Source: Fimicolochytrium jonesii (lineage: Eukaryota). Taken from it: a stretch of 64,000 bases of DNA. Positions 17,063 through 64,000 of the stretch are shown here, one piece after another. Every line of letters begins with the position of its first letter. The first letter of the stretch is position 1. The notes beneath the pieces are model-generated. The model ran no database searches. It was not told where the DNA came from and was given only the letters and a program-made list of their open reading frames with translations. The stretch covers positions 62,001 through 126,000 of the forward strand of contig NW_026515673.1 of NCBI RefSeq assembly GCF_025526975.1, in the 5' to 3' direction. The position numbers were made by a program, and so were the translations under genes.

Positions 17063-19147
17063 GCTGCAGCTTCAAAGACTTCTTCCTCTCCATAGGCAGA
17101 GACCCTGCAACGGATCAGACAATCGCTCTCACGCGTCGCTCGCCTTGGTCAGATAGGAAATTCTTACTACATCAGCTCGTCGAAGTAGACAATAGCAGCC
17201 TTTCACAGTCACTCTCCTGACGCTCCCGGGTATCAATGTAGTAGATGTATGCAGCCCGTTATCACATACCGTCGCAGATGTTGAAGATAAAGGACGATGC
17301 CTGCATTCATCTTTTGCAGTTCTTCCTTACTTGTATGACCTTGCCTGGCCTCGGAGTGTTGGGGTGGCTCGCCACATTTAACCTCCGCAGGAACAAGGTA
17401 CCTATAAGCTATAACTACCGGCGAAATGAAGAGCCCGTCCCATCTTACCTACCAGCCATCACCTGTCTGCATCCTTCGGCCGAGACCCCGCAAGGGGTTG
17501 ACGAGTGGGGGCACCCTGGAGGCGTTATCGACCCCTGCGCGGAGGGACGGAGCGAAAAGCTCCAGCGGTGTTGGTTATGTAGCGACGATGACTCAAGGCT
17601 TCCCAGAGAACGGAAAGAATGGAGCGATATAGTGAAGTAAACAAAATGGACGTAAGGCCAGGTCATGGCGCCCCTGCGCGGAGGAGTGGAGGGGGCAGGC
17701 CGACAACTTGAGACGACGCGACTTCATGATGACTAAGCAAGGTATTGACAGCTGAACCCATTGTGGTCACTTCTAGAAGCTCTCGGACCCACGGACGGGT
17801 GATGATGCGCAATGGATTGTGCAATGATAACCCCCGTTGATCCTGGCTGCACACCGCAGCATACGAATCTTGGACTTTGTGCCGATCGATTGTATAAATA
17901 TAAAGGAGATCGGGATGATAGAAAGTATGTCGATCGCTTTGAAAACTTTACAGTGAAGCTTAGAATGAAGCGCCCCCTTTAAGTGGGGCCCCGTGGCTCA
18001 ATTGGTAGAATGACGAGGGTACGGGGCGACATCATGCACACAATCCGCGTTTGGCAGTCGTAAAAAAGCCATGAAGCGCACATACCGGAGGGCCAGATAC
18101 CCTCCCGATTATTACCAGCAGCTAGGAATGACGCTGTAAGTATATGATGGCGTGCACCCGCCACGTATAGGGCTGTGAGACCCGCAGGATACCAATTGTG
18201 CATTTTCGGGATACGATTTCTCCCATCTGTACATAATTGTTGCCCAACCCTCCTTTATGGCGCCTTTCGTCGGGAGACCTTCAACCTGCGATTGAGATAC
18301 GGTGGATAGTACGTAGAACGCTTCTCCGAGAGACACCCAGGCACACATTTACGCCCCCACAGTGAGTAACACGATGGTAACGTTTGCGCCAACAATTCCA
18401 CATTGAACTTAAAAGCCGAGACGTTGACTTCATGGAACTCTTTTATTTTTGCCGCACAGCTTCCGTCGCCGGAAAGGAGCCCTAACACTGAGCGGGCATT
18501 CGCAACGAGGACGACCATCGGCCACCCAGAGGCAGAAGAGCATATTGCGGATCAGGTAAGACGGTGTGCGGAAACTGTCAGTGCCCGTCATTATGGAGCC
18601 ATGGCCCTGCGGTGAACGACCACAACTGAGGCATGGTTTTTTATTTGATGGCGCGAAGGAAGGATCGGCGCAGACGGAGGGCTGCAAAGTTGGACGACGA
18701 GGGCAACGGTGGCCTCGCATATCTATGTGATGTGTGGGATGGATGGGAGGGAGGGCTCGCTGTTGCCGGTGACTGAATGAATGGATGAAGGAGGGTTGAA
18801 TGTGAATGCGTGCCGTAGGCTTGTCAAGATCAATGTGAGAAAAGCCACAAGGAGGGGCCAACTTTTTGCTCCTTTGAGCATTGACCATCGCAATTTGCAA
18901 CTGGAGGGGTCTACTCGGCAGACTATTGGAAGGGCCCAATGAGCGAGCACCAGCACCTGCTCTCAACTGGCTGTCGTTGGACGGCAGACCTCCAACAGCT
19001 GAATCCTCATCGGCAGCGCAGCCTCCTCACCGGTCGACCCCGTCATGCACTGGAAGGGGTCTATCGGGATTCTTCACCATCGCCTATCCACAAAGGGTCT
19101 AACTTTCTTCTCCCTTTTCGCCCTCATTATCTCTCTTTCTATTCGAT

Positions 19148-22100
19148 ATGTCCGGAGGAAAGAAACGACAACGATCGCCCAGCAAAGGGTGGTTCTCTCG
19201 GGGGGATTCCTACTCGCTTGAGGGCATTCCTCACTGTGACCGGGAGAATCCTTCTCTTCCAGGACGGGACTTTCGCAGCTACAGTCAGCAACACTCGGCC
19301 AGTCTCGCTGCGGCGTACGACCAGCTTGTCACTGGTCAATTGCAGCCGCCTTCTTCCAAGCGCCGGAAAGGCGGACTCTCCGCTTCAGCGGCGGCAACAG
19401 AGGCTACAGACGGACGGCGACCAGGAATGACGCAGACGGTCGGTATGGATGGGCATAGTGGTCGAGGCTCTTGTGTGGCAAATCCTTTTCGAGCTGGACC
19501 CGAGGCTACGGAATCTCAGTCACGACGGCCCGTAACAGGGCTATTATTAGACCACGCTCCAGAGTCGACTTTATTGGCAAGCCGGCGACGTCGCAGTATT
19601 CCTCGCTTGACGAACCTTCCCGCCTTCACGTCGCAAGGATCATCGTCACAAGCTGCATCGTTTACGAACGAAAACTCTCTGCCCACGAAAATCCCAACAC
19701 CCAGCCCCGCGCGACCCATGCTAGATACCGTCTCATTATTTGCTAGCGCACTGAACGTCAGTTTGGTCGACCCTCTGACCGACTTGACTTTGATCGCACA
19801 AGACTCGTGCCACACGACTGCTACTTACAGGGGTCGTCTTGGACATATACCCGTGCTTGTCAAAGCCGCGTCTCAGGATGGGCCAAGAGGCGTAGAAGCG
19901 GTCGCTCAATTGCGCCACGAGTACAATATCATCAAACATTTGCTTGTCGATCGATCGGCCCAGATGTTATCGCCGCCAGCTACACGCATCAGGCAATCTC
20001 CGGCTGATGGATTCGGAGCTGCGGCCTCACTCACACCAGGGATGTCGACGTCTTCGTCTTCCCTATATAAAAGTGCTCACGAAGGCATGATCGCCTTACC
20101 AGATGCTATCTTTCCACTGGAGTCGCCAGGCACTGCCTCGTCCGCTGAGGGCTACTTTGCAATGCCACGGCAACGAAGTTCAAATGGACTGGTCCCAAAC
20201 GTGCAAACGGCTATCATCCCTCCTTTCCCTTTCTCGTCATCAGCACAAGGGCTGTTGCTGCCCTTCCCCGATTACTCGGAGTTCACCCTCCACGGCATTT
20301 TGGAACGACGCGGAAAACCATTTCCTGTGCTGGCTGCGCTGAAATTGATTCAGCAGATCGGAATGGCTCTCGTATTCATCCACGACGGCGGCATTACCCA
20401 CAAAGTGAGTAAAACACTCAGCCTACAACGTTTCCGGATCACGGGATGAATATTGATTTTCTTCCATTTTCCAGAACCTCTCGTCTTCGTCCATCGTTGC
20501 AGCACCGAAAGCACCGTCCGACCCGGAATGCGAAGATTTCGATGTGCGCATTGTAGATTTTGGACACGCTTCGCGATTAGAAACGGAAAAATATAGCGTG
20601 AACCTCAATCCGGGGATGTCACCTGTTGGACTGGAAGGCGACTTGGCGTATATGGCACCGGAGGCAACAGGGCGGACCAGTAGATCGCTGGACTACCGCG
20701 CCGATTTCTACTCCCTCGGATGTGTCTTCTACGAACTCCTGACGATGCAGACGCCATTCAAATCATCGGATTTGGGTCCTGCCGAATTGGTATTCGCTCA
20801 TCTTGCACGCTCTCCACCGCCATTACCGGATAGCATTCATCCGAAATGCGCAGAAATGGTCTTCAAAATGCTTTCGAAGAACGCTGAGGACAGATATCAG
20901 CACGCGATGGGTATTTCTGCCGATTGCAACCGACTCAGTACGCTGCTTCGTCGAACGCACCACCGGAATGGCACGGTCGCACACAATCATCGAGGTCTCG
21001 CTCGCTTTACTCCCGGCATATACGATGCTAGATCGCGGCTGGTGTTCCCAAACAAATTGTACGGGCGCGAGGAGGAGATACAGAAGTTGCTGGATTCGCT
21101 GGAAATCACTCGTAAGGGACGTCCGGTTCTGTGTTCGGTGGGAGGATATTCCGGTGTGGGAAAATCTGCTTTGATTTCCGAAATCCACACACCGGTCGTA
21201 ACGGGCGGGTCGTGGTTTGCGGCGTCGAAAGTGGATCAGTTCTCGGCGCGGCTACCTTTCCACAGCTTTATTCAGGCGTTTCGGGAATTGGTGGCAAACA
21301 TCTTGGCGTCGCCCGTCGAGCTGTTGGATGCATTTCGAGCGAAGTTCGATGAGTTGATTGGAGCGGATGGGCTGGGGGGAATCATCGTCCAGATCTGCCC
21401 GCAGCTGGAACAGGTGGTCGGTTTGCAGCCCGTTGCGGCCAATCTGGAACAGGCGCAAAGAAAGCAGCGGTTCATCACCGTCATGCTGAAATTCATTCAG
21501 GTGTTCACGTCCCTTCCTTCGAACATCGGCGATGATCGGCGAATGTTGGTCCTAGTCTTGGATGATATGCAGTGGGCGGATACAGGGACTCTCAACATGA
21601 TTAGCTCGATCATGTCGGATCCGGAGAAGAGTCTTGGCGGCGTACTTCTCATATTAGCATACCGGAACAACGAAGTCGACAAACTGCACCCACTGTCCGA
21701 AATCCTTACCTCCTTACGCAAAGCCCCGGATGTCCAACGGTACTTGATTGAAATCGAATTAAAGCCGTTGGATCCAACAGCAGTAGCTGAACTCATAGCC
21801 GACACTCTCGGATGGGAAAAGGCGAGGCGCGTCCCGTCGATCACTCACAGCTCTTCAGCTTTGGCCCGGAGTGCGTCCGAGTCGAGCGACTCGGACACGT
21901 CGGATCATGAGACTTCCTCAGCCGCTGGGAGTAGCTACGGGAGTCTGCCAGGGACCCCGTCGGCGTCGGCGCATGGCTCGTTCTCTTCGCTTCCAGGAAA
22001 GGAGGAGGCACCGCCTGCGAAAGCCATGAGCTTGACGAAGCTAGTGCATGCTCAGACGGCGGGGAATCCGTTTTTTTTGTTGCAGGTATGTGCGTTCTTC

Positions 22101-25100
22101 TGTTGTCTGCACATTCGGCAGGACTTCTCGATTTACGGTTCCGTACAATACTGACCCCTTTTCATTACAGCTGTTGAAAAGCTTCCATCAGACTGACAGC
22201 CTGACCTTCAACTGGACGAAACGGAAATGGATCTGGGACCCGGCCTCAGTTTCGGAGGCAGGACTGGCGGAAAACGTGGTTGACTTCATGGTCACGCAAA
22301 TGCGCAAGTTGACGCTTAATGGACAACGCGTGCTCAGTCTCGCGGCCTGTATAGGAGACACATTCAACCTGTTTATGATCAGCAAGCTGCACGAGAAGCC
22401 GGTGGATGCGACAGTGACGGAGCTGTGGGAAGGCGTTGAAGGGGGCTATATCGTTCCTCTGGATCAATCCTACAAAGTCCCGTTGGCATTGTCCGGTTAC
22501 GCTGGCTCTGAGCATTTACAGGGTGGTACCGCCCACATTCGCGTCAATTACAAGTTTCAGCATGGTATGTACATACCGCTACTACGTAAGTGAAGCCATC
22601 ATCAGGAAAACGCTGATGCATTTCCCACTCCATAGATCGTGTGCAGCAAGCGGCCATGTTGCTTCTCAGTGAAGAAGAACGAGTGCAAACTCATCTGAAG
22701 GTCGGCCAGCTCCTCATCATGTACACGCCACCAAACGAGGTGCAGGACCGCATTTTTGAGATCGTAAATCAGCTCAACAAGGGGCAATCCCTGATCACGT
22801 CCGAGCGAGCCCGTGAGGAATGCGCAAAGTATAACTGCATGGCCGGAACGAAAGCGAAAGACGCCGCGTTTGCAGATACCGCTTCGGAGTACTTCAAGGT
22901 CGGGCTGGAGATGTTGGGCGGCGAGGAAGCTAGCTGGGGGCGGAACTACGATCTCGCTAAACAGCTGCACTTGGATCTCATTGAGGCGGAGTACAATTGC
23001 TGCCGATACACGAGGGCCAAAGATCTCATAGATAACGCGAAACTGAACCTCCGCAACGTAACCGAGAAGGCTCAACTTGGGCTCATCGAGGTGAAGTACT
23101 GGACAAGTCAAGGGTTGACGCAAGAAGCCATCGCGACGGGCCTGGATGTTCTGACTGTTTTGGGGTGCCCCATCCCGCCAGCGGGTAGTCCGGAAGTGGA
23201 TGCACTCCGGGCGGGACTGGACCTGACCGATGCGGAGATTCAGCATTTGGAGCATGCCCGGATGATGGACGAGAATGAAAACACGGCGAAGGCTCTGGAG
23301 ATGATGTCTGCATTGATACCCCCGATTTACTTTGGAGCGCCTGAGCTACTTGTTCCTCTTATCCTCACTATGGTTCGCATCAGTGTGGACAACGGAAATA
23401 CGGCGAGCAGCTGTTATGGCTACATTCTCTACGGTCTACTCCTGTGTGGTGTCTACCAGGAGATGACCAAAGGCTATGTTTGGGGATGTGTCGGAAAGAA
23501 CCTTGTATCTGACCACTGGGAGAACGATCCCATCAAGTGCCAGGTTTACAAAGTGTTCGCCTCGCACATTCAACCTTGGACCGAGCCGGTACGGGAATGC
23601 ATGCAGAGTTACAAAATCGCATGGAACCATGGTTTGGCCACGTGCAACTTCGAATACATGGGATACGCCGCGACCGAGGATATGATGTACTCTGTCCTGT
23701 CTGGAGAGAATCTGAGCGAAATCGACGAAAAGAGCACGCAGCAGGCCAATAAGGTCTATGAACAAAAGCAGGCCATTGGATCGGCCTACATCCGCATCAC
23801 CCACCAGCTTGTCAAGACTTTGATTGGGAATCCCGAGGCTGAGCCAAAGGACACAACGATGTTGGTCGGGGAGGTCTTTGATGAACGCACGATGCTCACC
23901 CCAGAGGTTCAAAAGATGCAGCTGTGTATTTTTGCGTATCACTGCTACAAGCTTATCCTGGCCTACGTCTTTCGCGAGTACGATCAAGCGGTGGAGCAAG
24001 CAGCCCTCGCTGAAAGCGTCGTGGCTGGCGGTGTTGGTCTCCTTCTCGTCGCGGAACTCAGCTTTTATCAGTCACTAGCCCTGCTGGCTGTCGCTGACAT
24101 CGACAGTCCATCCTGGCCGGCCGCGGAGGAGACAGTGATCCGGAATCAGAAGCAGATGCAGGTGTATGCGGACAGTGCGCCTGGAAACTTCCTGCACAAG
24201 TACAAGCTTGTACAAGCGGAGTACGAGCGGGTTGCGGGCAATAAGTATGTCGCTATGGAGTTGTACGATGAAGCTATCGCCATGGCGCGCACGAACCGGT
24301 TCACGCACGAAGAAGCACTGGCTAGCGAGCTCGCGGCTGAGTATTACGCGGCAGCAGGGAAAATGAACGTCGCCGGGGCGTACGCCGCGGACGCGTTTTA
24401 CGCGTATGTGCTCTGGGGCAGCAAAGCGAAAACCGCGCAGTTGCAGAGTATGGGTGGCATGTGGAGCTGGCTTAGTGCGGGGAGAACTTCGAAGATCGAG
24501 GAAAAGCATGACGAGATTGACATAGAAGCTTTGTTGGTAAGTGCGGAATGGCGATCGATCTGCGTGTGTTGAATCAAGTGCTTACAAGGGGTCTGGCTGT
24601 CGCACTAGAATGCAACCAGGGCTATATCGACGGAGATTGTTTTCCCGCGCCTTGTCAAGCAAGTCATCGCCAATATCATCCGCAACACCGGCGCCTCGCG
24701 GGCGTTCTTGATGCAAGTGCGCGACCATGATCTGGTCCTGGTGTCGTCTGGATCTCTCGCAGTGCGCAACCCCAATGAGGCCACTACGAACCCGAATGCT
24801 CTTGACGAGATGTCCGATGCACCCAAAGCGGGCGATCAGGCCGCGAACGGCACTCCACGTCCTTCCGTGGCAGCCGTTGATGGACAACCTGCATCACAAA
24901 CGTCGTCAAGTAGCTACTTCTCCGGTGCCAATGGGTCGAAGCTTGACATCAAAGTCACCGAGTCCGCCATCTCCATCACCGACGCCTCAGCCGAAGTACC
25001 AGCGTGCCTTATCAACTATGTTTACCGGACCCAACAGGTTGCAATGAGCACATGTCTGCCGGACTCGTTACGGCGAGCATGCCTCGTTGAGCCCTGTTTG

Positions 25101-27451
25101 AGAATGCGAAAACCGCAGTCTTTACTTTGCACGCCCGTTCTCTTGCAGGGCAAAATGACGGCTATCCTCTATCTGGAGAACGACTTGATCGCTGGAGCCT
25201 TTACGGAATCGCGTCTCAAGATCTTGCAGATTCTTGTCTCCACGGCGGCTGCAGCGCTCGAGAATGCATCGCTGTACAAGCGCCTCCAAGATTATAGCTT
25301 TAACCTGTCGAATATGGTTGAACAGCGCACGAAGCAGTTGCAGGAAAAGAATGCAATCCTGGAGGTTGAAGTTCAGGAAAGGATCAAAGCGCAACAGGAC
25401 ACGCACGAGGCGCTGGAGATGGCAAAGGCTGCAACTTTGGCGAAGAGTAGCTTCCTGGCAAATATGAGTCATGAGATAAGAACGCCAATGAATGCTATCA
25501 TCGGTATGGCGAATTGCTTGTTGGAAAGCGGCCTCAACACGCTGCAGGAGGATTACGCGAACATCATTCACACATCCGGAGATGAACTGCTGAGCATTAT
25601 CAACGATATCCTGGACTTCAGCAAAATCGAGAGCGGGAAGCTGGATTTGGAAGAAGTTCCATTTTCTCTTCGCACCTGTATAGAAGGTGCCTTAGACCTA
25701 CTTGTGCCCAAAGCAGCGGAGAGGAATTTGGAGCTCCTCTATGTCAATAACGACGAACCTGGTACCTTTGTTGGAGATCCCACTCGTTTGAGGCAGATCC
25801 TCGTCAATCTGCTGTCCAACGCCGTCAAGGTGAGTCTTCGTTTTCGTTTTTGTTTACGGTCGCGCTGTGGCGATTTTCCTGACGCTGTTGAACCTACGCT
25901 TTTTAGTTTACAACCAATGGCGAAGTGGTGGTATCGGTGGAGAACAGACGGCTGGATCAGGCGGGGGACACGCCGATGGAAGAAGGCTTCTACGAAATCA
26001 CCTTGAAAGTAAAGGATACTGGGATAGGCATCCCGGCCGATCGCATGCATCGCCTGTTCCAGAGTTTTTCGCAGGTCGATTCAAGCACAACTCGTACTCA
26101 TGGAGGTACAGGATTGGGCTTGGTGATCAGCAAACGACTTGCCGAAATGATGGGTGGAACGATGTGGGTAGAATCTGAGAGTGGTGTGGGATCCACATTC
26201 TTTTTCACCATCCGCGTGCGAGCAGCGCCAGATGTGGACGCCGACGCCGTTGACCATATGCAGATATTGCAGGGCAAAGGCGTGCTCGTCGTGGACGATA
26301 ACCGAACCAATCGCCGGATTTTGGAGCAATTCTGTTCCAGCTGGGGTATGCGTGTCAAATGCGTGGGTAGCGGAGAGGAAGCTCTCAAGGCGTTGGAGAC
26401 GGACTCCGGATTCGATTTGGCTTTACTGGATATGATCATGCCCAATATGGACGGATACACCCTCGCCACTCGCATACGTCACCTGAGTCAGAAGCCGAAG
26501 ACCATGCCCTTGGTGCTCTTGACCTCTATGGGCTGCCGTTTCGGAGAAGAGGAAAAGCAAATAGCGCAATTCTCCGCGATGATGATCAAGCCCATCAAAA
26601 AGCTTCGCCTAAAACAGCAACTGGTCGAAATGTTCCTGCGATTGGAACGGATGTCACTGTCGCCAGTAAAAACTCACCCATCCACTCCGTTGACCCCTTT
26701 GAAGTCTCCGAGCGTTCAAGAGCTCGTCGATGAAGAAACAATCGGGGTCAATGGCAATTCGTCACCCACACCCGACGTGAAGCCCCGACATCCAGATACA
26801 CTGGATCATCAACGGAAACAGGGATCGTTCTTGATATTTGGGCCCAGCACCATCGAAGAGACACCTAAGGCTAGCCCGAAGATCACCAAACGCCGGTTAC
26901 AAAGCGGAAAGCGTGGGTCTTCCACCGAAGACTTAGAATTGCTGCAGCGGGCGAAAATCCTTCTAGCCGAAGACAACCCTATTAACCAGAAGGTCGCCGT
27001 TCACATGCTAAAGCGCGTGGGCATCACGATGGACATTGTGGAAAACGGAAAGCTAGCCCTTGAGGCCGTTATGAAATCACATTATGATTTGGTTCTCATG
27101 GATCACATGATGCCCGTCATGGACGGCCTCACAAGCACTCGGCTCATTCGGTCGAGTTTGCCGCCTGATCAACAACCTCGCATCATCTCATTGACCGCCA
27201 ATGCGATGATGGGCGATCGCGAGGCGTCTCTGGCCGCTGGTAGCGATGAGTACTGCAGCAAGCCCATCAAGTTGGATGCGCTGCTCGACGCAATGCTGCG
27301 GTGTCTTGACCCGGACGACGCTGCTAACTCGTCACCGGACATGAAACCCATCAGAGAGGAGCCTGCAAGAGCTCGCTCGCAGAACCATTCGCGGCGCCCA
27401 TCTGCCAGTGCGCTTCCCCCTCTACCGCAGCGGTCGAAGACCGACGGATGA
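19148..27451 (+). CDS. Hybrid histidine kinase, STK-like/AAA ATPase/TPR-like/GAF/HisKA/HATPase/2xREC (group X, Chk1/Mak2-3-like), multi-exon
   Basis: IVDFG and AYMAPEATG (kinase fold); LYGREEE, GYSGVGKS and LDDMQWAD (AAA); GAF with LYLEN; H-box FLANMSHEIRTPMNAIIG; NLLSNAVK, DTGIGI, FSQVD and GGTGLGL; receivers LLDMIMPNMDG and LMDHMMPVMDG. Confidence 0.95.
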
Positions 27452-28235: not shown

Positions 28236-29602
28236 CAGTCAGTGGACATAAAGCTGTGTGCATGCCAGATTAAGTCAGTGTCTGACGCGCGTTGCGCGAC
28301 ATCAACTCATCATCCTTAATCTTGGGGCATTGCGAAACCTGACCTAAATGAATGGATCTAGATCTGAATTTTGCTAATACCTAGTTGTCCCCCCATTGGC
28401 TGCGATTACGGCTGCCATGCTTGATGGCATTGACCGTGTCAATGCATCAAGATGCGGCTGCATTGTGGGCCATATAGTTTGCACAACGTTGTCCAACATT
28501 CCAGGGGTAGGGTTCGCTTTCGATACCTTCCGTTTGAGCATTGCCCACAGATTCTCAATCGGATTGAGATCTGGACTCTGCGCTGGCCAGGGAAGAAGCT
28601 CAATGCCGTGTTCATCAAAGAACTGTCGAGTTTCAGCCGATGTATGAATAGGGGCGTTGTCCTGCATGAAGAGAGGATTGGGAAGAAAAATCTCTAGATT
28701 CCGCCACATCGGCAACATGTTAGCAGTAAGATGTTGCACATAGGCAGTAGAGTTAATCCCTCCACGGTTTTGACCCTCTCGCTGAACACGCTGCATCTCT
28801 TTCATTGGACCTACTGCATTTCCAATGAATGCTCCCCAGTACATGAATGTTTTTTGTCCACTCTTCCTGGTGCCCTGGATGCAATCGGGATGAAAACGTT
28901 CAGTTCGTAAGCGCCAGCACCGCATTTTAGGTACCCAGCCAATTTCAAAGGACGTCTCATCAGTCCAGAAAACACGAGACCAGTCCGCTTCCATCCAGTC
29001 TTGGTGCTGCAGTGCAAATGCAAGGCGTGCTGCTTTATGGTCCTCTGTCAATAGTGGCTTTCGGACCTTGAAACGCGAGGTGAGATAGAGCAGGTCCCGT
29101 AGGTAGCGACGCACTGTTTTTGCAGACACCTGGAGTCCGGTGAGCTGTGTGAATTCAAAAGTGATCTGTTTTAGTGTTTTCTCCCGAGTGCTACTGTCAG
29201 CAACGACAATACTGCGGAAGGCAGCCAAATCATCGTCAGAAGGCTGGTACTTAGCTGGTCTTCCTGTTGGCTTCTTCGATTGATAGGCGGTTGGTGCAGT
29301 GGCACTCTCGTTCGCAAACCTCTTAATAGTGTTCCTCACAGTATTCCTGTGAACGTGCTCCTGCCTTGCAATTTCAGATGTCGTCTTGCCTGCTATATGG
29401 AGGGCAACTATGGCTGCCCTTTTTTGTGGTGTGAGAGGTTTCCCCATAGCTGAGGTGGTGAAGATGTTGGCGTGCATTTCGCCATCACGGCTTCGTCGCT
29501 GGCTTCAATACTCAAGCTTGCGGCTCCAAAACGCGCGGTGCGCTTTGTGAAACGGTCATTGAAATCCATATGGGGTGCACACAGCTTTTTGTCCACCGAC
29601 TG
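28236..29602 (-). mobile_element. Complete Tc1-family DNA transposon (1367 bp) with 27-bp TIRs and TA target-site duplication
   Basis: Left end TA|CAGTCAGTGGACATAAAGCTGTGTGCA (28236-28262). The right end reverse-complements to TA|CAGTCGGTGGACAAAAAGCTGTGTGCA (2 mismatches). TA at 28234-28235 and 29603-29604. Confidence 0.95.
28374..29447 (-). CDS. Tc1 transposase, DD34E, intact ORF
   Basis: N-terminal HTH, TGRP, KPLLTEDHKAARLAFA, WTDETSF, FMQDNAPIH and WPAQSPDLNPIENLW, with 34 residues between the second D and the E. Confidence 0.96.
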   Translation of the reverse strand: MGKPLTPQKRAAIVALHIAGKTTSEIARQEHVHRNTVRNTIKRFANESATAPTAYQSKKPTGRPAKYQPSDDDLAAFRSIVVADSSTREKTLKQITFEFTQLTGLQVSAKTVRRYLRDLLYLTSRFKVRKPLLTEDHKAARLAFALQHQDWMEADWSRVFWTDETSFEIGWVPKMRCWRLRTERFHPDCIQGTRKSGQKTFMYWGAFIGNAVGPMKEMQRVQREGQNRGGINSTAYVQHLTANMLPMWRNLEIFLPNPLFMQDNAPIHTSAETRQFFDEHGIELLPWPAQSPDLNPIENLWAMLKRKVSKANPTPGMLDNVVQTIWPTMQPHLDALTRSMPSSMAAVIAANGGTTRY

Positions 29603-37100: not shown

Positions 37101-39380
37101 TGCTCCTCTGCTCACGTAAGCGTTTGATGGCAGCTCTACAAGATGCCTCGCGTGACAGATGGGTGTCTACGTTGCAAGATCTGGTAAAAGAGCATCCGGA
37201 GATCCGATTATGGCGGCTCGACGTTGATATACCCCGACACAAGCTTGTTCCGGCGCGGCCGGATCACCCGGAGCGCACGCCGGTGCCTATGCCCACCGTT
37301 ATGTATATAGGTTCGTGCGGCTGTCACTTCGCCTTTCCTTCCCCACATTGTTCACTTCAATCTCGATCATACGGGAACAGAGTCAAAAGACAACATCCAA
37401 TCAGTTCTGCAAGATGTGCTTACTAGCCCTACAGGCGACTCGGGCGCGATCCAGGCCGCTGGAGCCGACATAGACGTCGGCTGGGGACTGCGCGCTCAAC
37501 AACGACATTCAGTGTGTGTACTAGTTGAACCTGATGGAGATGTGTCTGTCCTGGGCAGCTGCGACCATGTAAGCTGCTGGGACCATTTTTTTGGACTGGG
37601 AGGCAGAGGGTTGACTCAGACGTTGATTTATCTGAAGTATACCAGCTCAAGACCCCGCAACGGTGCTCAGAGTACCATAGCCTCGCCATCAGGGCTTTAC
37701 CGCCCCCCAGCAAAGGCGACAGTATTCCCCACGCAGATCCCGCAAGCCTCAACGTTACTCCGGCAAGCGGCCGTAATAGCCAAATGCGCATACACGAAAC
37801 TCCAGCTTTTCGGGTACTACCTCATCGAATTCGGGACCATGTTTCAAGGCTCGGTATGTTAACGAATACATGGACATACCATTGAAATTCATCACTTACT
37901 CGGCTTATTTGACATCAGGAAACGCTTTACGCGACAGCTATCAAGACAGGCTACACACCTCAGCACGCCGGCATTCAGTTCTTCACACTCTGCACACGCT
38001 GTAAATACAATGCGGCTAGCAACAACTTCGAGTACATCGCCGTGAAGTTTGAGAATCCGGGTTTGACGTATGCTGAGCAGATTGCTTGGGCGGATAAGGT
38101 AAACCTGATAACTGAGCGTTGCGAAAGTTGCAGTGAAGTATGATGCTGAACCAGCTGTCATTACTATCATCAGAAAATCATCAAGCAAAGCACAAAAGAA
38201 CAAACATCTCACACGAGGACGTGCGTGTACATCCCCCAAATACGACATTCGATGCTCCCAGAACGATCATGGGCTGGAGTGGCCGCTGTTGCGAGCCTCG
38301 ACTACGATTTCCGGGTACGTTATACTCGGCCTGTATGGGAAGCCGTGTTTTGATCCTCACCACGAGTCTCGACTCATTAGACCCGGCATGGAAGCCTATT
38401 CTCACGCGTCGCGCGGCCAGGCGATCCAACGTCTTTTGCTGAAGCGATGTAAGTCACGTACAAAACATTCGTGATGAGCTCGCCTCCTGACCCCACATTG
38501 TTTGGCATTCAACAGGTTTATCGACGAAACAGTGTCCTCCGCTCTCATGATCGCTCTGAGCGGTATACATGCCGTCGACTCTGCGCTATCGTCTGCGCAC
38601 ATGGGTGCGGATGGAAAATGGAGACGGATTGGGGACTCCACTCATTTTGAGGTGAGATAGACATGTTGCGGCGCGAACGATGAGAATGAGGGTGACAGTA
38701 ATATGATACTGAGTCTCCTGCTGAATCGCCTTTTGTAGGAAACGGCATGTGTTCTGGCCCGTCTCCTGAGCGAAAGGGAGAGTATCCCTCTATCAACCAT
38801 GAGGAAGACTGATGACACAAGCACGCTAGAAGTACCCTCCGCGCCTCCATCATCAGCGCCAGCACCGGCACCAAGCGAATTCCCGGACGTCATGACCCTC
38901 ATCACCTCTCTCTCAATCCCACTCTCCCGCTCCGGCGCCCTCGACGTCATACCCGCTGATTTCACCACCCCACGCCGGTCCAAGAACGCCCCAAAACCCA
39001 CCTCAACCCTCGACTACGCCCTTCTCTACTCCGCGATCCCTTCCTCCCGTCTCTCCTACAACAACCCAACCTGGAATGACTTTTCCGAGCCCGTCGCGAT
39101 CCTCCCGACCCTCGAGTTCAGACTCCCACGTATTCCGCTCGGTCTCACCACCGAGCAGTATCTGAAGTTTGTGGAGTTGTGGGTGGGCGATGCCATTGAG
39201 ACGGAGGAGGATGAGAAGTTGAGAGAGGGGATTAGGATGTTGAGGGCGGGGTTAGAGGGGTATGATGAGATGGGGAATGCGGTTGGCGAGGCGAGTGCAA
39301 GGGCGGCGGTGCGAGAGGAGCAGCGGCTGAAGAGGCTGGCTGCGAAGGCAAAGAAAGCGAAAAAGATGCGCGAGATGTGA
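34171..39380 (+). CDS. Large multi-exon IQ-motif protein, IQCH-like (flagellar/ciliary-associated)
   Basis: IQ-like motifs (AAPTLIQSWWRMMKLR; AAKVLWGYWRLRR) followed by an IQCH-like region (RLFRLMD, SPASWVLASPSVMRILRELT, VLIPDAVGSAEIQLS, VCVLVEPDGDVSVLGSCDH, VFPTQIP). The exon structure is approximate and the family call is by recognition only. Confidence 0.6.
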
Positions 39381-56706: not shown

Positions 56707-56922
56707 ATCGTTCGAGACAGCTTGGAATAGGGGCAGGCTCGCGATTCACTCTTCACGTCACGATCGCTTCGAGACCAGCTTGGAATAGGGGCAGGCTCGC
56801 GATTCACTCTTCACGTCACGATCGCTTGAGGTGCAGCCTGGATTTTGGGCACTCGCGGTACGCTCTCTCGACTTCCCAATCGCTTGAGGTGCAGCCTGGA
56901 TTTTGGGCACTCGCGGTACGCT
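56707..56922. repeat. Minisatellite of four related ~58-bp units (A-A-B-B')
   Basis: Units start with ATCG(C)TT at 56707, 56763, 56821 and 56879. The A copies are near-identical, the B copies are identical over 44 bp, and A and B align with each other. Confidence 0.9.
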
Positions 56923-57408: not shown

Positions 57409-57880
57409 TTGTGCTTTGGACGAGGAACGTAGTCCTCTAGAGTCTATGGACGAGGAGGAGGTTGCTTACTATCCCACCTCAACTACCCACCGCACTAAGC
57501 ACCTCCTCCTCACGCCGCATTCGCCGCATTCGCCGCTCAAACCGCATCGGTTTATTTATCAGCATCGCCTTCCACGGCGCAATCAACGACTACGCAAAGG
57601 TTTTACGGGTTTCCCTGGACATTAAGTCCTAAATGCGCTGCTCTGCGCGCTGCGGAGTAGCGTTCCCGAATAGACAGCTCATCTTCATCGACCATCCCTC
57701 CCTCCCACCGTAGCGTTCAGTCATAGCACTCGATAGCTCAAAAGAGATAAGGGAAAGGGAGCTATACGCACCGCAATCTGTTATTTATGCTGTCACTCGA
57801 GAAGGAAAATAGAGAAGCTTAGTAAGACCATAGACTCGTCCATAGACTCTAGAGGACTACGTTCCTCGTCCAGAGCACAA
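57409..57880. mobile_element. 472-bp non-coding element bounded by 46-bp inverted repeats (MITE/foldback-like)
   Basis: 57409-57454 (TTGTGCTTTGGACGAGGAACGTAGTCCTCTAGAGTCTATGGACGAG) is the reverse complement of 57835-57880 with one mismatch. No clear TSD. Confidence 0.7.
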
Positions 57881-58036: not shown

Positions 58037-58124
58037 CCGGCCTTACACCCATCACGCCCGGCCTTACAGCTTCACGCCCGGCCTTACACTGCATACATGT
58101 ACAGCCTTCACGCTCGGCCTTACA
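58037..58124. repeat. Four copies (one partial) of TCACGCCCGGCCTTACA upstream of the Fanzor gene
   Basis: Copies at 58037 (partial), 58052, 58072 and 58108. Confidence 0.85.
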
Positions 58125-58462
58125 GGAAGACTGTGACCTGTACTGTACAGTAGACGCGCGGCCTAAGGTTCCTTCCTTCCCAACCCCATTCTTTCCCAAC
58201 GCAATTGCGAGCAGATCTGTACTCGCCGACCACCACCAGGTAACAACCGCAATTCCTCACCGTTCTCAGCTTCATTACCACAGCACTGATGCAAGTTCTT
58301 TGACAAACAGCTACCCACAGCTTTCACGGCAATCACCTGCAACACATGTACACACACCAGTTATCTCGGCTGCGGGCAATCTGACCTCAACGCATCCACT
58401 GTGGTTGAATCAGGTTGTTCTGCTAGAGTGGTTCTCAACCGACATCATCTCTAGCAGGCATC

Positions 58463-61199
58463 ATGTCATCACACCAGGCGCTCCAGGGGCACCTGTGGTG
58501 TGGCTTCTTTACCGGAGTTACCACACCACGGCGGAAGAGGAGGAAGGTTACTCCGGTTACCCCGCGGTTGCCCATACGTCTGCCAACCGCTGTGCAGACA
58601 CCATTGCAACCCCCGCGATTCGAGTTCCCACCTTCTGTCCATCGCCACTTGCCCCAAGCAATTGCAGACATGATTAGGGAGAGTTCCGGCGAGAGTTCCG
58701 GCGATGAAGACGGGCAGCAGCACCAGCAGCGAGGGCTTTCACCCGTGGACAGGGGTCTGCAGCGTCCGTTGAGCCTCCCCGCTCCCAATCCTTTCCTTTT
58801 TCCCAGCACACCGGGCGGATCCCTGGTGTATGAACCACCACCACCACCGCCACCACCACCAGTTCAACGACCCCGCCCGCAGACACATGCCAGCACCAAG
58901 GTTTCGCTTCACCGAATTCATAATCAAAATCAAAATCAAGTTCAGAGGGAGCGCCTGACAACATTCATCGGCAATGTTCACGTCCTTGCGCGCCACACCA
59001 CCTTCTTTCTCAAGTACTACCTTGGTGAGTTTTTGAGGTACACTGCAGTGTATATTTCCCATAAAACAATGTCCTGACTACTACAATGTCCTGACTACTA
59101 CGTCTGCCCACCACAGCTGATCATCCTCTACACGATTTCCCGGACATCACCGACAAGCACATCAGTGTGATATTTGAGCTGCTAAATAACCCAGGCTACA
59201 ATGGCAATCCAGTCATCGCGCAAGAGTTACGTCCACGGGTTCAAGACTACTGTGATGTTCACGGATTCGCCCCCATCCGCATGCGGAATTGCCAACAGAC
59301 CGCAGCGTACACGGCTACGTGCATCCTCACAAACCTCAAAGTCAACGTACAAGAGCATTTCATGCAAATGTTTCTGCGCTATGTCAAAGAAAGGATTGGT
59401 TTGGAGCAAGTCATACTGCATCTCCGGAGAGCGCAGCGGCGACACTATTATCGGCGTGTGCGTCAATTTACAAAGTATGCGACGTTTGAAGAGTTTACAA
59501 CCAAAGAGGAGTTTGCGCGCCTCACACGACTTGAGTGGACCGTCCTCAATGAGTTATGGGCTCTGTTTCCTCCCCAGGATGAGCCGCTTGCGTACAGCCT
59601 TGCGGTGGACGCAATGCCATATTTAGGTGAGCTATGTCCCGTACATTTACCTCCCCCTCCCCCCCCCCCCTCCCCCCTGCGGCTTCCTCTTTTGTCTAAT
59701 CATGGTCAGCACCTGCCCTCGTCACAGGTGCCTATTGTGAGCTCTCACGCCTCTATGAGTGCCGTGGAATGCGGCTGTTTTCGGCCATCCCGCCGCGCAA
59801 ATCTCGAATCCAGTCATCTGTTCGGATCGACATAAAGATCCTAGCCACTCATATCCTGGGCTTGACCCACCGTCGCATGAGGAAATTCACCGATGAACGC
59901 AAGCGGGAGCTGTGGGGGCAGTTTCTCAATGTGAATGTAAGTCTCTATCCTTCTGCGCTTATTTCAATCACCTCACTGAATGACCGATTGCAGGACAAGA
60001 TCTTCAAGCATCGAAAGAAGCTTGGTCTCAAGTTCGATGGGTCAATCAGCACAAACGGGTATTCCGTTACCATCCACTTCAAGAAGCCAGGGCTCAAGTA
60101 TGGCCATCAGGCGCGGAAGCGCAGCCAGGCCCAAATGCGGGAAGAAGTCAACCAGCTGTATTTTGAGCACCACATTGCCGAACTAAGGGACGCTTCAAAC
60201 ATCATCAGCATTGATCCGGGCAAGCGTGACCTCTTGTTCTGTTGAGACATCAAGAAGGAGCGACCATTTCAGTACGTTTCAGTGGATTACTACTTTTGAC
60301 ATTCCGTTGCACCGTCCTCACAATGCACCACCCCATATCAGATACACATCCAATCAACGGGCGGTCGAGACAAAGTCTCGGTACTTTCAAAGAGACATGA
60401 CAGAGCAAAAGATCAATGCGGGCATCGCTGAGATGGAATCACATATTCCGTCGCACAAGAGCATGAACATCGAGGCGTTCTCAGCGTTCATTGTGGATTA
60501 CGAACATGCAGGTATGATGTTCTACTTCAACTTCAACTTTCAACTTTGGTAATACATGGGCTGACATCCATATCCCAGATCCCGCCCTGGATGAGTTTTA
60601 CCAGGATGAGATTCACGTGGCTCGCAGATTCAAGGCGTTCTCACTGCGGCAAAAGTCTGAGAGCAAGCTCATCAAGAACATGCGACGCCTGTATGGAAAG
60701 CATTTTGTGGTCATCTTGGGTGGTTGGAGCGACGCTGGAAAGACCATGCGCTTCCAGGAGTCGTCAAAGACCAAAGGGGGAGTGACTATCATTGGTACTA
60801 TGTATTATAATATGCTAACTCATCATGGAAATCAGACTCCGCACACTCTTCGCAAGAAACAACATTCCATGTTACTTGCTAGATGAGTATCGAACGTCCT
60901 CCGTGTGCCCGGACTGCCACGGGCGTGTGAAGAAACACATCTGACGGCGGCCGTCATCTCGGCCGTGGCAAGCTAGAAAGGGAAGAATGGAATACGTCCA
61001 TGGATTGGTGGGTTGCCCCAACCCCGAATGTATCAACCAAGACTGGACGCCATTTGAGATTCCTGGAAGACGACCACTACGGATGAAAGTGCACAATCGG
61101 GACATCCTAAGCACCAAGAATTTCCTCTCGATTGTGCGTTCGGTGGTGTTTGGCAATGGCCGCAGGCCAGACGCAATGACCAGACGCAATCTCCCGTAA
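58463..61199 (+). pseudogene. Fanzor1 (eukaryotic TnpB-like RNA-guided RuvC endonuclease), 7 exons, with disabling lesions
   Basis: Exons 58463-59024, 59117-59626, 59728-59936, 59994-60271, 60342-60511, 60579-60777 and 60836-61199 join in frame (about 763 aa). Motifs: FDGSISTNGYSVTI, RuvC-I ISIDPGKRDL, YTSNQR, VVILGGWS, LLDEYRTSSVCPDC, VHGLVGCPNPEC and RuvC-III HNRD. There are in-frame TGA codons at 60243 and 60942, and the last intron donor reads GG. Confidence 0.92.
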
Positions 61200-61320
61200 C
61201 CGGTAGTCTAGAATTTTCACCGCATTCCATTTTCCGTGGTGGTTATCTGCCATCCACATCATTGTACCTCTGCCTGAGGCGTCGCCGATGATGGCAACTT
61301 GTATTCCTGGAGCCTGGAGC
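61200..61320 (+). ncRNA. Candidate Fanzor omegaRNA region (boundaries unknown)
   Basis: Lies immediately 3' of the Fanzor stop, where omegaRNAs are encoded. Hairpins at 61236-61257 and within 61263-61303. Inferred from position and structure only. Confidence 0.45.
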
Positions 61321-61995
61321 GCTTCCGTTTGAAACGTACTTTAGCCCTCATCGCTGTTCTCAAGGCTTCTGGACCCTCCAAAAGCAGCCTTATGTGGAGT
61401 CATCTCTCGATGTAAGTTTCACCATCGCTGGATATTTTGCCACAACATCGGCGTTCATACGGACACTCGGCAATCCTTCGACGTCAGTGTATCACGACCT
61501 CATCAAGCCGAGTCCTATCCCGATCGGCTACATTGATCTCCTCCTCCTATCTTCGGCGTCGCACCCGAAAACATCGAAGAAGATACCTCGAGTAGAGAAT
61601 ACTCCAGAGTACAATCACAGCTGCAGGTCAAGGGAAAAGGATGGAAAGGCCCCGACGTATATGGAAGCTAGTTGAAAATGTCCAAGACGTCACTGTCTAC
61701 TCCGTTGCTGGTCAACTGAAGAGCTTGGGTAGACCTTACAATAGGAGCACCTAGAATATGTTAAAGCCACCAACACCTACAAAGTCCGGCGACCATCACA
61801 GGCACGACGGAGAAGATAGATCCCATGATTCGAAAAGAGTATCTGGGGGAACAATCCAAATCCCTTCATGGGCCTAGGAGCGTTTACATTGTACCCCGTG
61901 TTCAATGGGCAGGATGGCCACAGGTACTTGGGTATAACGACGACGGACCACCGATGTACCTCTGCCTGAGGCGTCGCCGATGATGGCAACTTGTA
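61263..61995 (+). repeat. Exact 41-bp direct repeat (61263-61303 and 61955-61995)
   Basis: TGTACCTCTGCCTGAGGCGTCGCCGATGATGGCAACTTGTA is present twice, 692 bp apart. Confidence 0.95.
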
Positions 61996-62417
61996 ACGAC
62001 GACGGAACACAAGGTCGTGCAGTCTTCCGCTGCCGCTGCTCAAGGACGTGTAGATTGGATACATTGCCAAGGGCCCAACTGGTGGGAGCTACGCTAGACT
62101 GCCTACAGCTATATACATACGCGGCATCCAAGGGGCCTTCTCCATAACGATAGGTTTGCGGAATCCTTCGACCACCTGTCCTGTTCCATCCCCAACAGTG
62201 CAGGACCGTTCAGAAATCATTGAAGAAATCTGACTGAACGAGCGTCGCGGAGCCTTCATGCCCAACAAGAGTGGTGTGAACAATGTTAAAACACGCCTGG
62301 GTGACTCACTGCTGTTCCCGCCCCCTGCTCTTTTCCCCAGGTGGACTTTCGTTTTTTTCTCACCCCCGTCCCACGATTCCCACTTTCCCATCCACCCCAT
62401 ACTCCTCAATAACGGCC

Positions 62418-64000
62418 ATGGCTGCCGCTGACCAAGATAACGGCTGGCGGTTCGCCCAGTGCTTCGGCGATAAAGGCGATGTCGAAGACGTCACAGAAGG
62501 TAAATCACCCCGCTGATCATCACGGAAAGCGGCCCGCGTGTTTCAATATACTTATTACTCAACTTCCTTCCTTCCCCCATCTAGCCGATATCATATCCGC
62601 GGTCGAGTTTGATTCCACTGGCGACTTTCTTGCGACCGGTGATAAGGGCGGAAGGATAGTCTTGTTCGAGCGGAGTGAGGGGGTGCGTTTCGTTCAATTT
62701 GGGAAGCGGCGACCCTAGATTCTGCTTAGAGGGGGCGAGCCTTATTTGCTATGAGGAAGCATGAGCAATGCGTGGGGTGGCCGCGAGGGAAGCAAGCGAA
62801 TGCGACTGTCTGTAGCAAGCGGATCAAGGTGCAGGGACGCTTGAGGCTGGCGAGCCGTAGGCGAGGCATTGGTTCGCGAGCGGACTAGCGAGCGAAGCAA
62901 GCAATAGATGTGAGCGGCAGGGAACGGTCGTGGTGTAAACGCGGCGGAGCTGCCGTTCCTCTTCAACTGCGAGCGGCCGCGAACGGTCGCATTTAGTCGT
63001 GAGCGATGTTTTATCTCTGCGGTCTCATCGAAATCATTGGCTGACGTCCACCCATCGCGAATTACCCTCACAGAAGAAGGGATGCGAATACAAATTCTAT
63101 ACAGAGTTTCAGTCTCACGAGCCCGAGTTCGACTACCTGAAAAGTCTGGAGATCGAGGAAAAGATCAACAAGATTCGGTGGTGCAGACGCCAGAACGCTG
63201 GGCATTTCCTCCTCTCAACCAACGGTATGAATCACCAATTCGCAGATGCCTCAAGCTTTTGTGTGATCGAGTCCTAATTGCTCCGAATAGACAAGACGAT
63301 CAAGCTATGGAAAATCTTCGAGAAACCACTAAAGGTCGTTTCCGAGACAAACCTCCTGGTAGACGCGACCCCCGCGCTCGGAGGAAACCTGACGAGGTCA
63401 TCTCTCAAAATGCCCCGCCTGATTCATCACGATACCATGATCGCTGCCGTCCCGAGAAAGATATACCAAAACGCGCACGCATACCACATCAACTCGATTT
63501 CGGTCAATTCGGATGGGGAGACCTTCCTGTCGGCTGACGATTTGAGGATCAATCTGTGGAATCTGAATGTGTCGGATCAGAGCTTTAGTACGCGTTGGAG
63601 TGCAGCTTAGCTCTCGAGGCGCGTCGCCGGCATGCTTATCTTCTACGAATTATAGATGTGGTGGACATCAAGCCTGTGAATATGGAGGAGTTGACGGAAG
63701 TCATAACGGCCGCAGAGTTCCACCCGTCGCAATGCAATCTGTTCGTTTACAGCAGTAGCAAGGGGACGATCAAACTCAACGACATGAGGCAGGCCGCCCT
63801 TTGCGATAAACATTCCAAGTGTGAGTTTGTGTGTGACAGCTATCGCAAACTAGCGACCGCTCGGGCTAACCGGTTTGGCCGTTGATCGGACAGTGTTTGA
63901 GGAGGAGGAAGATCCGGCAAACAAATCCTTCTTCTCAGAAATCATATCCTCGACATCAGACCTCAAATTCAGCAGAGACGGGCGATATATCCTGTCGAGG
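62418..64000 (+). CDS. CDC55: Protein phosphatase 2A regulatory subunit B55, 3'-truncated by the window edge, multi-exon
   Basis: [66 protein letters not shown] and [21 protein letters not shown]. Confidence 0.98.

What the first reader, a model, noticed from the sequence alone, without database searches (positions are those of the whole stretch)
58463..61199. Hidden six-intron Fanzor1 RNA-guided nuclease gene
Seen: seven ORF fragments splice into one frame of about 763 aa. It has a WED/REC-like N-terminus (STKVSLHRI...VHVLARHTTFFLKYYL), RuvC-I Asp (IDPG), a Gly at the usual RuvC-II position (ILGGWS), the shifted Glu in DEYRTS, a CPDC...CPNPEC zinc finger and RuvC-III Asp (NRD). Established: this rearranged RuvC is characteristic of Fanzors, the eukaryotic OMEGA nucleases such as Spizellomyces SpuFz1. 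Inference: this is a divergent, intron-rich fungal member that ORF-based annotation would miss.
Basis: partly seen in the sequence, partly recalled or inferred. Interest (0 to 1): 0.9.

Follow-up and report, generated by a model that had tools for sequence, protein, structure and literature searches.

The report
Dead six-intron Fanzor with guide-RNA end
This is a broken, six-intron copy of a Fanzor gene (a fungal relative of CRISPR DNA cutters) from a multi-copy family in a soil fungus, followed by a likely guide-RNA sequence and a duplicated end piece that may be a scar left by the enzyme's own cutting.

Summary
The anatomy is confirmed. Seven exons splice into 763 codons, 44% identical to SpuFz1, with its three catalytic residues in register; an intact-looking sibling folds onto SpuFz1 (TM 0.91). 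But this copy is dead: two in-frame stops, a GG donor at intron 6 and a small 3' duplication. It is neither lone nor unannotated: 57 gene models labelled Fimicolochytrium jonesii belong to the family, and one is an automated, truncated model of this very locus, named only 'uncharacterized'. Introns in Fanzors are published. That layout fits an aborted Fanzor-triggered homing repair (about 20%); ordinary templated insertion also fits. The six intron positions differ from two intron positions in metagenomic relatives, and SpuFz1 has none. The scan had no sequence look-alike; it noted dead Fanzor1 relics in other genomes. New member of a known kind.

The parts
58463..59024 (+). Exon 1: about 140-aa Pro-rich extension with a PRRKRRK basic patch (likely nuclear signal), then the start of the WED/REC part
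   Evidence: residues 1-121 of sibling P0051 have pLDDT under 50; extension shared by siblings and absent from SpuFz1
59025..59116 (+). Intron 1, 92 nt, GT-AG, phase 1 (SpuFz1 residue 65)
   Evidence: 11 of 57 models read through
59117..59626 (+). Exon 2 (REC region)
   Evidence: PDB hit SpuFz1 8gkh E 1.5e-20
59627..59727 (+). Intron 2, 101 nt, GT-AG, phase 1 (SpuFz1 residue 244)
59728..59936 (+). Exon 3
59937..59993 (+). Intron 3, 57 nt, GT-AG, phase 0 (SpuFz1 residue 311)
59994..60271 (+). Exon 4 with RuvC-I D501 (IDPG, 60210-60221) and the first premature TGA (60243-60245)
   Evidence: D501 aligns with SpuFz1 D383; siblings mostly Arg at the stop
60272..60341 (+). Intron 4, 70 nt, GT-AG, phase 2 (SpuFz1 residue 401)
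60342..60511 (+). Exon 5
60512..60578 (+). Intron 5, 67 nt, GT-AG, phase 1 (SpuFz1 residue 458)
60579..60777 (+). Exon 6 with the Gly at the canonical RuvC-II position (ILGGWS, 60713-60730)
60778..60835 (+). Intron 6, 58 nt, broken donor (GG), branch-like CTAAC and AG acceptor present, phase 2 (SpuFz1 residue 524)
   Evidence: 41 of 57 models read through this junction
60836..61199 (+). Exon 7: shifted catalytic E660, CPDC...CPNPEC zinc finger, second premature TGA (60942-60944), RuvC-III D732, 13-bp duplication near the end
   Evidence: (SpuFz1 E 5.3e-30)
61229..61303 (+). Candidate 75-nt omegaRNA scaffold and element right end, ending in TA; starts 22 nt after the sibling-type stop (TAG 61204-61206)
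   Evidence: 14 of 18 identical to positions 2-19 of the published SpuFz1 scaffold; stem-loop at scaffold positions 8-29; inferred, no RNA data
61304..61318 (+). Predicted 15-nt guide of this copy (flank after the right end)
   Evidence: inference from the SpuFz1 layout; no other match within 3 mismatches in the window
61933..61954 (+). TATA followed by 18 nt, the first 15 matching 61996-62010 at 14 of 15: possible cut target left behind
61955..61995 (+). Exact second copy of scaffold positions 35-75 (41 bp of right end, ending in the same TA) joined to a different flank
   Evidence: the only non-tandem exact direct repeat of 25 bp or more among 3 in the window

Best explanation
This is a disabled six-intron copy of a multi-copy SpuFz1-type Fanzor1 gene family in a Spizellomycetales chytrid, and its intact relatives likely work as omegaRNA-guided DNA nucleases that help a TA-inserting mobile element keep its place. 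Shown: the splice, the homology, the catalytic D-E-D register, the lesions and the family size. Inferred: spliced mRNA of intact copies makes the protein; a roughly 90-nt RNA made from the element's right end (here 61229-61303 plus about 15 nt of flank) loads on it; the complex reads a TA-ending motif, cuts an empty allele about 16-21 nt downstream, and repair from the occupied allele restores the element. A transposase would act in trans, since none lies beside the gene. This copy cannot make the nuclease, but its right end could still supply guide RNA to intact copies.
For: Splice and motifs; 43.9% identity to SpuFz1 with D501/E660/D732 on D383/E541/D606; AlphaFold2 model of sibling P0051, pLDDT 84.2, best Foldseek hits SpuFz1 (TM 0.91 by target, E 6e-53), then PpFz1 and GtFz1; 57 of 57 fetched F. 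jonesii-labelled models match, on 31 contigs by distinct length; the window copy nests among them (branch support 99, quick tree); two stops, a GG donor, 25 private amino-acid changes of which 9, both stops included, fit one CpG transition; omegaRNA core match in 44 of 20000 random 120-nt stretches; repeat boundary at the predicted terminal TA.
Against: No RNA run was available, so splicing and omegaRNA are not observed. No left-end inverted repeat was found although Spu-1 has 30-nt ones. The 3' regions of three metagenomic relatives do not align to the candidate above background (364, 737 and 3963 of 5112 windows score as well). The whole 75 nt folds no better than shuffles (20 of 200), the long stem 2 is not predicted, and the C6-G20 pair of SpuFz1 is broken. 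The 18-nt motif was chosen after seeing the match. Only 12 of 25 omegaRNA-contacting and 3 of 6 TAM-contacting SpuFz1 residues are identical, and N385 is Gly. Homing is not listed as shown for any Fanzor (PMC13565253).
Confidence: 0.85

Rival explanations
1. The copy is intact in the organism and the lesions are sequencing or assembly errors.
For: The GG donor lies in a G run; all three catalytic residues and four zinc cysteines are kept.
Against: Two stops, a donor change and a 13-bp duplication are independent; both stops fit CpG transitions, among 25 private changes; most sibling models are also fragments.
Confidence: 0.04
2. The locus is expressed as a shorter, nuclease-dead protein through other splice sites, as the automated model P0054 has it, and serves the host as an RNA-guided DNA binder.
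For: P0054 gives a stop-free 651-aa reading that keeps residues 1-508 and 521-643.
Against: That model drops the zinc finger and RuvC-III region, which hold many omegaRNA contacts in SpuFz1; the spectrum of private changes looks like neutral decay; gene predictors commonly splice round stops (own knowledge).
Confidence: 0.05
3. The Fanzor pseudogene is real, but 61229-61303 is not its omegaRNA: the match is chance and the right end is lost or lies elsewhere.
For: No left-end partner; negative alignment with relatives' 3' regions; a second 4-mismatch match of the motif exists at 39081; no Rfam family above gathering score.
Against: Position, length, stem-loop register and terminal TA all agree with the published scaffold; relative L007 also has TTTTCCG and ends TTGTA 76 nt later; the repeat ends at the same TA; PMC11423790 says the part beyond stem-loop 1 is unconstrained.
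Confidence: 0.2
4. For the downstream 41-bp copy only: an ordinary templated insertion at a random break, copied from 692 bp away with a local duplication, unrelated to Fanzor cutting.
For: 41 of 41 identity is what copying from the neighbouring sequence gives; CCAC on the left and TA on the right could be microhomologies; only 11 nt of the duplicated target are perfect.
Against: The copied piece ends exactly at the predicted terminal TA and joins a new flank; the left junction is 11-18 nt after TATA, close to where SpuFz1 cuts (16-21 nt); no other such repeat occurs in 64 kb.
Confidence: 0.6

Closest known systems
SpuFz1 / SPu-1 element of Spizellomyces punctatus (PDB 8gkh, 9ceu-9cez; PMC10432273, PMC3627910)
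   Same: 43.9% identity over 620 positions, same D-E-D register, zinc finger, sibling fold TM 0.91, multi-copy family with many partial copies, no transposase beside it, candidate 75-nt scaffold just after the stop that ends in TA.
   Different: Six introns against a single ORF; about 120-140 extra disordered N-terminal residues; 3 of 6 TAM contacts differ, so the motif may not be CATA; no terminal inverted repeat found; this copy is broken.
Intron-containing Fanzors such as CrFNuc of Chlamydomonas (PMC10530073)
   Same: Spliced Fanzor1 gene in a multi-copy mobile element; that paper reports up to about 9.6 introns per kb, against 6 in 2.7 kb here.
   Different: CrFNuc sits in Helitron2 elements and showed no cleavage in that paper; this family is fungal and close to the active SpuFz1.
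PpFz1 of Parasitella parasitica and GtFz1 of Guillardia theta (PDB 9cf0-9cf3, 9cer; PMC11423790)
   Same: Fanzor1 fold (Foldseek E 1.5e-32 and 1.1e-19); conserved first stem-loop; PpFz1 has a stem 2 of only four pairs, as is possible here.
   Different: About 20% and 16% identity; the PpFz1 RuvC insertion is not evident from the alignment; third catalytic residue is Asp, not the Asn of GtFz1.
Restorative homing by TnpB and IscB in IS605 and IS607 elements (review PMC13565253)
   Same: The proposed job of intact copies and the proposed origin of the downstream scar.
   Different: The review lists homing as shown only for these prokaryotic systems; here there is only one sequence footprint.

Membership tests
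Fanzor1 | RuvC-I Asp, RuvC-II Glu and RuvC-III Asp in register with SpuFz1 D383, E541, D606 | tested here: met
   D501, E660, D732; residue numbers from PMC11423790
Fanzor1 | Rearranged RuvC-II: Gly or Pro at the canonical Glu, catalytic Glu six residues before the zinc finger | tested here: met
   G624; E660 is followed by six residues, then C667; definitions. The Gly-to-Glu distance is 36, against 'about 45' in PMC10530073
Fanzor1 | Four-cysteine zinc finger (TNB) between RuvC-II and RuvC-III | tested here: met
   CPDC...CPNPEC; Pfam Cas12f1-like_TNB only E 0.013, below its cut-off
Fanzor1 | Bilobed WED/REC plus RuvC/TNB fold with enlarged REC | tested here: met
   On sibling P0051 (87.5% identical) as a stand-in, not on this copy. 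The three acidic residues were not measured in the model
Fanzor1 | Eukaryotic host and multi-copy mobile element | tested here: met
   Spliceosomal introns; 57 models labelled F. jonesii, Spizellomycetales
Fanzor1 | omegaRNA encoded at the right end | tested here: inconclusive
   Candidate 61229-61303; negative tests; no RNA data
Fanzor1 | RNA-guided, TAM-dependent DNA cleavage | not testable with these tools
   Needs a bench assay on an intact sibling
Active Fanzor1 gene (this copy) | Open reading frame after splicing | tested here: not met
   Two TGA stops and a GG donor
SPu-1-type element | About 30-nt terminal inverted repeats with TA duplication | tested here: inconclusive
SPu-1-type element | Single intronless ORF | tested here: not met
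   Six introns against the single ORF; a related family, not SPu-1 itself

The most novel reading that the evidence does not exclude
The piece at 61933-62010 is a fossil of Fanzor homing in a fungal genome: a Fanzor loaded with the guide that follows the second right end cut the empty TATA site 16-21 nt downstream, gap repair copied the flank, the TA and 39 nt of the element's right end from the occupied allele, then aborted and end-joined, duplicating the target. A transposase cutting at the element ends would not leave target sequence beyond the TA on the left side. It would be sequence evidence that Fanzor1 cuts its own empty sites in vivo, and it would predict a TATA-like motif for an active, six-intron, SpuFz1-class nuclease whose introns were gained independently of those in its relatives.
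Probability: 0.2. Interest if true: 0.75.

Novelty: new member of a known kind. Interest (0 to 1): 0.42.

Why it matters
The family offers a close relative of the best-studied Fanzor, with a full-length sibling, a predicted guide scaffold and changed TAM-contact residues, so it is a ready candidate for a nuclease with another target motif; its members carry only 'uncharacterized' labels. With about 40 sibling loci the ends, the motif and the omegaRNA can be read from one genome. The natural role of Fanzors is stated as unknown (PMC10432273); if right-end fragments with target duplications recur in this genome, that question becomes testable from sequence alone. Non-shared intron positions within one clade (none in SpuFz1, six here, two others in metagenomic relatives) point to repeated intron gain inside a mobile gene.

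Tried and rejected
No whole genome is held, so sibling DNA, element ends and genome-wide scars could not be examined. Sequencing runs: none was listed; no RNA holder listed, which says nothing about expression. Pfam: no exon and neither of two long siblings reaches a Fanzor or TnpB family cut-off; the precomputed PF26935 is not in this library and I do not know its name. Rfam: 4 weak matches, all below gathering score. Left-end search: best score 27 against a null 95th percentile of 30; best ungapped 19 of 30, far away; rejected. Alignment of 3' regions of L007, L009 and L012 to the window: not significant. No second Fanzor copy in the window. The Tc1/mariner at 28236-29602 was considered as helper transposase: it is TA-flanked, but its ends do not resemble the Fanzor right end (by eye). 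Breaks in L013 and mid-L011 gave no convincing intron. The bacterial promoter scan is not informative for a fungus. The careful tree did not finish; the quick tree is used. Supplement file 8 of PMC10432273 was the G. theta locus and not useful. Not in print as far as searched: 'Fimicolochytrium' (17 papers, 15 listed), 'Fanzor'+'chytrid' (2), two of Fanzor/Fimicolochytrium/Spizellomycetales/FjFz (7; the one with both words cites Fanzor only in its references), and supplement searches found no description of this family; one search also missed 'Spizellomyces', so it is a weak negative, and two files of PMC10432273 could not be read.

Full report
Observation. The window is fungal DNA with spliced host genes. 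The introns are 92, 101, 57, 70, 67 and 58 nt. Five are GT-AG; introns 1, 2, 5 and 6 carry a CTRAY branch-like site, introns 3 and 4 only weaker ones. Intron 6 begins GG. The frame holds TGA at codons 511 and 679, and a 13-bp duplication at 61167-61190 shifts the last codons away from the sibling ending, whose stop would be TAG at 61204-61206 (read).

Identity. Exon 7 and exon 2 each find SpuFz1 as best PDB match (E 5.3e-30 and 1.5e-20). P0061 has the residue numbering of SpuFz1, and the splice is 43.9% identical to it (272 of 620), 51.9% to a Gaertneriomyces protein and 87.5% to sibling P0051. D501, E660 and D732 align with D383, E541 and D606, the catalytic residues named in PMC11423790 (passages). 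The spliced protein could not be folded, so P0051 stood in: mean pLDDT 84.2, residues 1-121 under 50; Foldseek ranks SpuFz1 first (TM 0.91 by target length), then PpFz1 and GtFz1, with Cas12f and TnpB far behind. Of SpuFz1 residues listed in PMC10432273 (section 10) the copy keeps 3 of 4 metal ligands, 3 of 6 TAM contacts, 12 of 25 omegaRNA contacts and 9 of 13 heteroduplex contacts. HMMER finds 1841 cluster representatives at E up to 0.001: a large known family.

Family and state. All 13 hits of the exon-7 search are labelled Fimicolochytrium jonesii, a Spizellomycetales chytrid. In all, 57 such models were fetched and 57 match the splice, median identity 87.9%; they lie on 31 contigs, counted by distinct length. 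As 41 of 57 read through junction 6, about 40 loci are likely. A quick tree of the C-terminal 220 residues places the window copy among 29 of these models (support 99). Five of 57 have the WED start, D, E, D and both cysteine pairs; P0051 alone covers residues 1-759 without a long gap, though its activity is unknown. P0054 is identical to the splice over residues 1-500 and shares its private GGWS, so it is the automated model of this locus; it skips the first stop and leaves the frame at intron 6. The locus is thus annotated but unrecognised. Against the sibling majority the copy has 25 private changes in residues 140-751; 9 fit a single CpG transition, both stops among them, while 12.8% of coding bases are in CpG. 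Decay helped by methyl-cytosine deamination is an inference.

Candidate omegaRNA. In SpuFz1 a 75-nt scaffold lies between the stop and the right end, with U5, C6, C7, stem-loop 1 and stem 2 from U35 to A75 (sequence in supplement file 4). Numbering 61229 as 1, positions 2-19 match at 14 of 18. The window holds 2 such matches on both strands, and 44 of 20000 random 120-nt stretches contain one; the motif was picked after I saw the match. Positions 8-29 fold as a hairpin (2 of 200 shuffles as stable). By eye, the G13-C23 pair keeps the SpuFz1 register, four outer pairs are kept through changed letters around one bulge, A30-U31-C32 and U35, G36, U74, A75 are identical, and four pairs (two of them G-U) are possible at the base of stem 2. 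The rest of stem 2 is at background identity, which PMC11423790 expects (passages). Against: the whole 75 nt has z -1.33, C6-G20 is broken, Rfam has nothing, three relatives' 3' regions do not align significantly, and no left-end inverted repeat was found. Relative L007 has TTTTCCG after its stop and ends TTGTA 76 nt later, with a partial inverted partner upstream that was not tested against a null. I put the candidate at about 70-75%.

The duplicated end. Positions 35-75 (61263-61303) recur exactly at 61955-61995, the only non-tandem exact repeat among 3 of 25 bp or more in the window. The second copy ends in the same TA and continues into a new flank; just before it stand TATA and 18 nt, of which the first 11 are identical and 14 of the first 15 match that flank. 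SpuFz1 cuts 16-17 and 20-21 nt after its motif (section 8). A break there in an empty allele, repaired by brief copying from an occupied allele and then end-joined, would give this layout (inference from general knowledge of gap repair). It needs an element once inserted at that TA, 630 bp from this one. A templated insertion from the neighbouring sequence, helped by CCAC and TA microhomology, also explains it and the perfect identity, and I rank it higher (0.6 against 0.2; the rest for other end rearrangements). The review PMC13565253 (passages) lists homing as shown for TnpB and IscB, not for Fanzors; PMC10432273 calls the biological role unknown (section 11).

Introns. SpuFz1 is one ORF (PMC3627910, passages; PMC10432273). 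The six introns map to SpuFz1 residues 65, 244, 311, 401, 458 and 524. In 5 of 5 metagenomic relatives tested (L006, L007, L009, L010, L011; L008 nearly duplicates L007 and was left out; L012-L014 do not reach the site) the best-scoring join is a phase-1 GT-AG intron near residue 164, and L009 and L011 share another near residue 584. None coincides with the six. These are predictions without RNA. Repeated gain is the simplest reading. Intron capture by Fanzors is published (PMC10530073, passages), so the introns alone are not new.

Mechanism and verdict. Shown: a spliced Fanzor1 gene of the SpuFz1 clade, broken in this copy, one of dozens. Inferred: intact copies are nuclear RNA-guided nucleases that use a right-end omegaRNA and a TA-ending motif to cut empty sites and so keep a non-autonomous TA-inserting element; no transposase lies next to the gene, and the one in the window is 29 kb away with other ends. 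It is a Fanzor1 by every sequence and fold test that could be run, not an active gene, and not SPu-1 itself. I found no description of this family in the searches named under Tried and rejected; the preprint 10.1101/2023.08.09.552727 (passages) and PMC12247965 (passages) add nothing on it. Earlier notes of this scan had no sequence look-alike and none for this genome; word search gave ghost elements and dead Fanzor relics in other genomes, not used as evidence. New member of a known kind, interest 0.42, with one lead worth a genome-wide check.

Noticed in passing
window 28236-29602: Tc1/mariner-type element: TA on both sides, inverted ends (41-nt arms, 85% complementary) and a 376-codon open frame on the minus strand with HTH_Tnp_Tc3_2 and DDE_3 hits; looks intact at first sight.
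   Followed up: partly
window 57409-57880: 46-nt inverted repeat pair, 98% complementary, 380 nt apart, 580 bp upstream of the Fanzor start; MITE-like, no clear target duplication; not known whether it belongs to the element.
   Followed up: partly
window 56707-56909 and 58037-58125: Tandem arrays of 58-bp and about 20-bp units upstream of the gene; unexplained.
   Followed up: no
L006 647-702, L007 1877-1943, L009 1235-1293 and 2575-2638, L010 387-562, L011 498-552 and 1830-1888: Predicted GT-AG introns at two shared positions in metagenomic SpuFz1-like genes, absent from SpuFz1 and from the window gene.
   Followed up: partly
L007 958-985 and 3444-3519: Candidate omegaRNA and right end with a partial inverted partner upstream in a metagenomic Fanzor1 locus.
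   Followed up: partly
L001-L005: Five viral-contig loci with long Fanzor-like open frames at 21-28% identity, two of them on one contig.
   Followed up: no
window 62419-64000: Spliced host gene with WD40 repeats; it looks like the PP2A B55/Cdc55 subunit (name recalled, from no call).
   Followed up: no
window 19103-27451: Large hybrid kinase region: protein kinase, AAA_16, GAF, HisKA, HATPase and receiver domains.
   Followed up: no
protein P0082: A 35%-identical Fanzor1-like protein labelled as from a Bacteroidota bin on a 3.3-kb contig; likely a misbinned eukaryotic contig.
   Followed up: no
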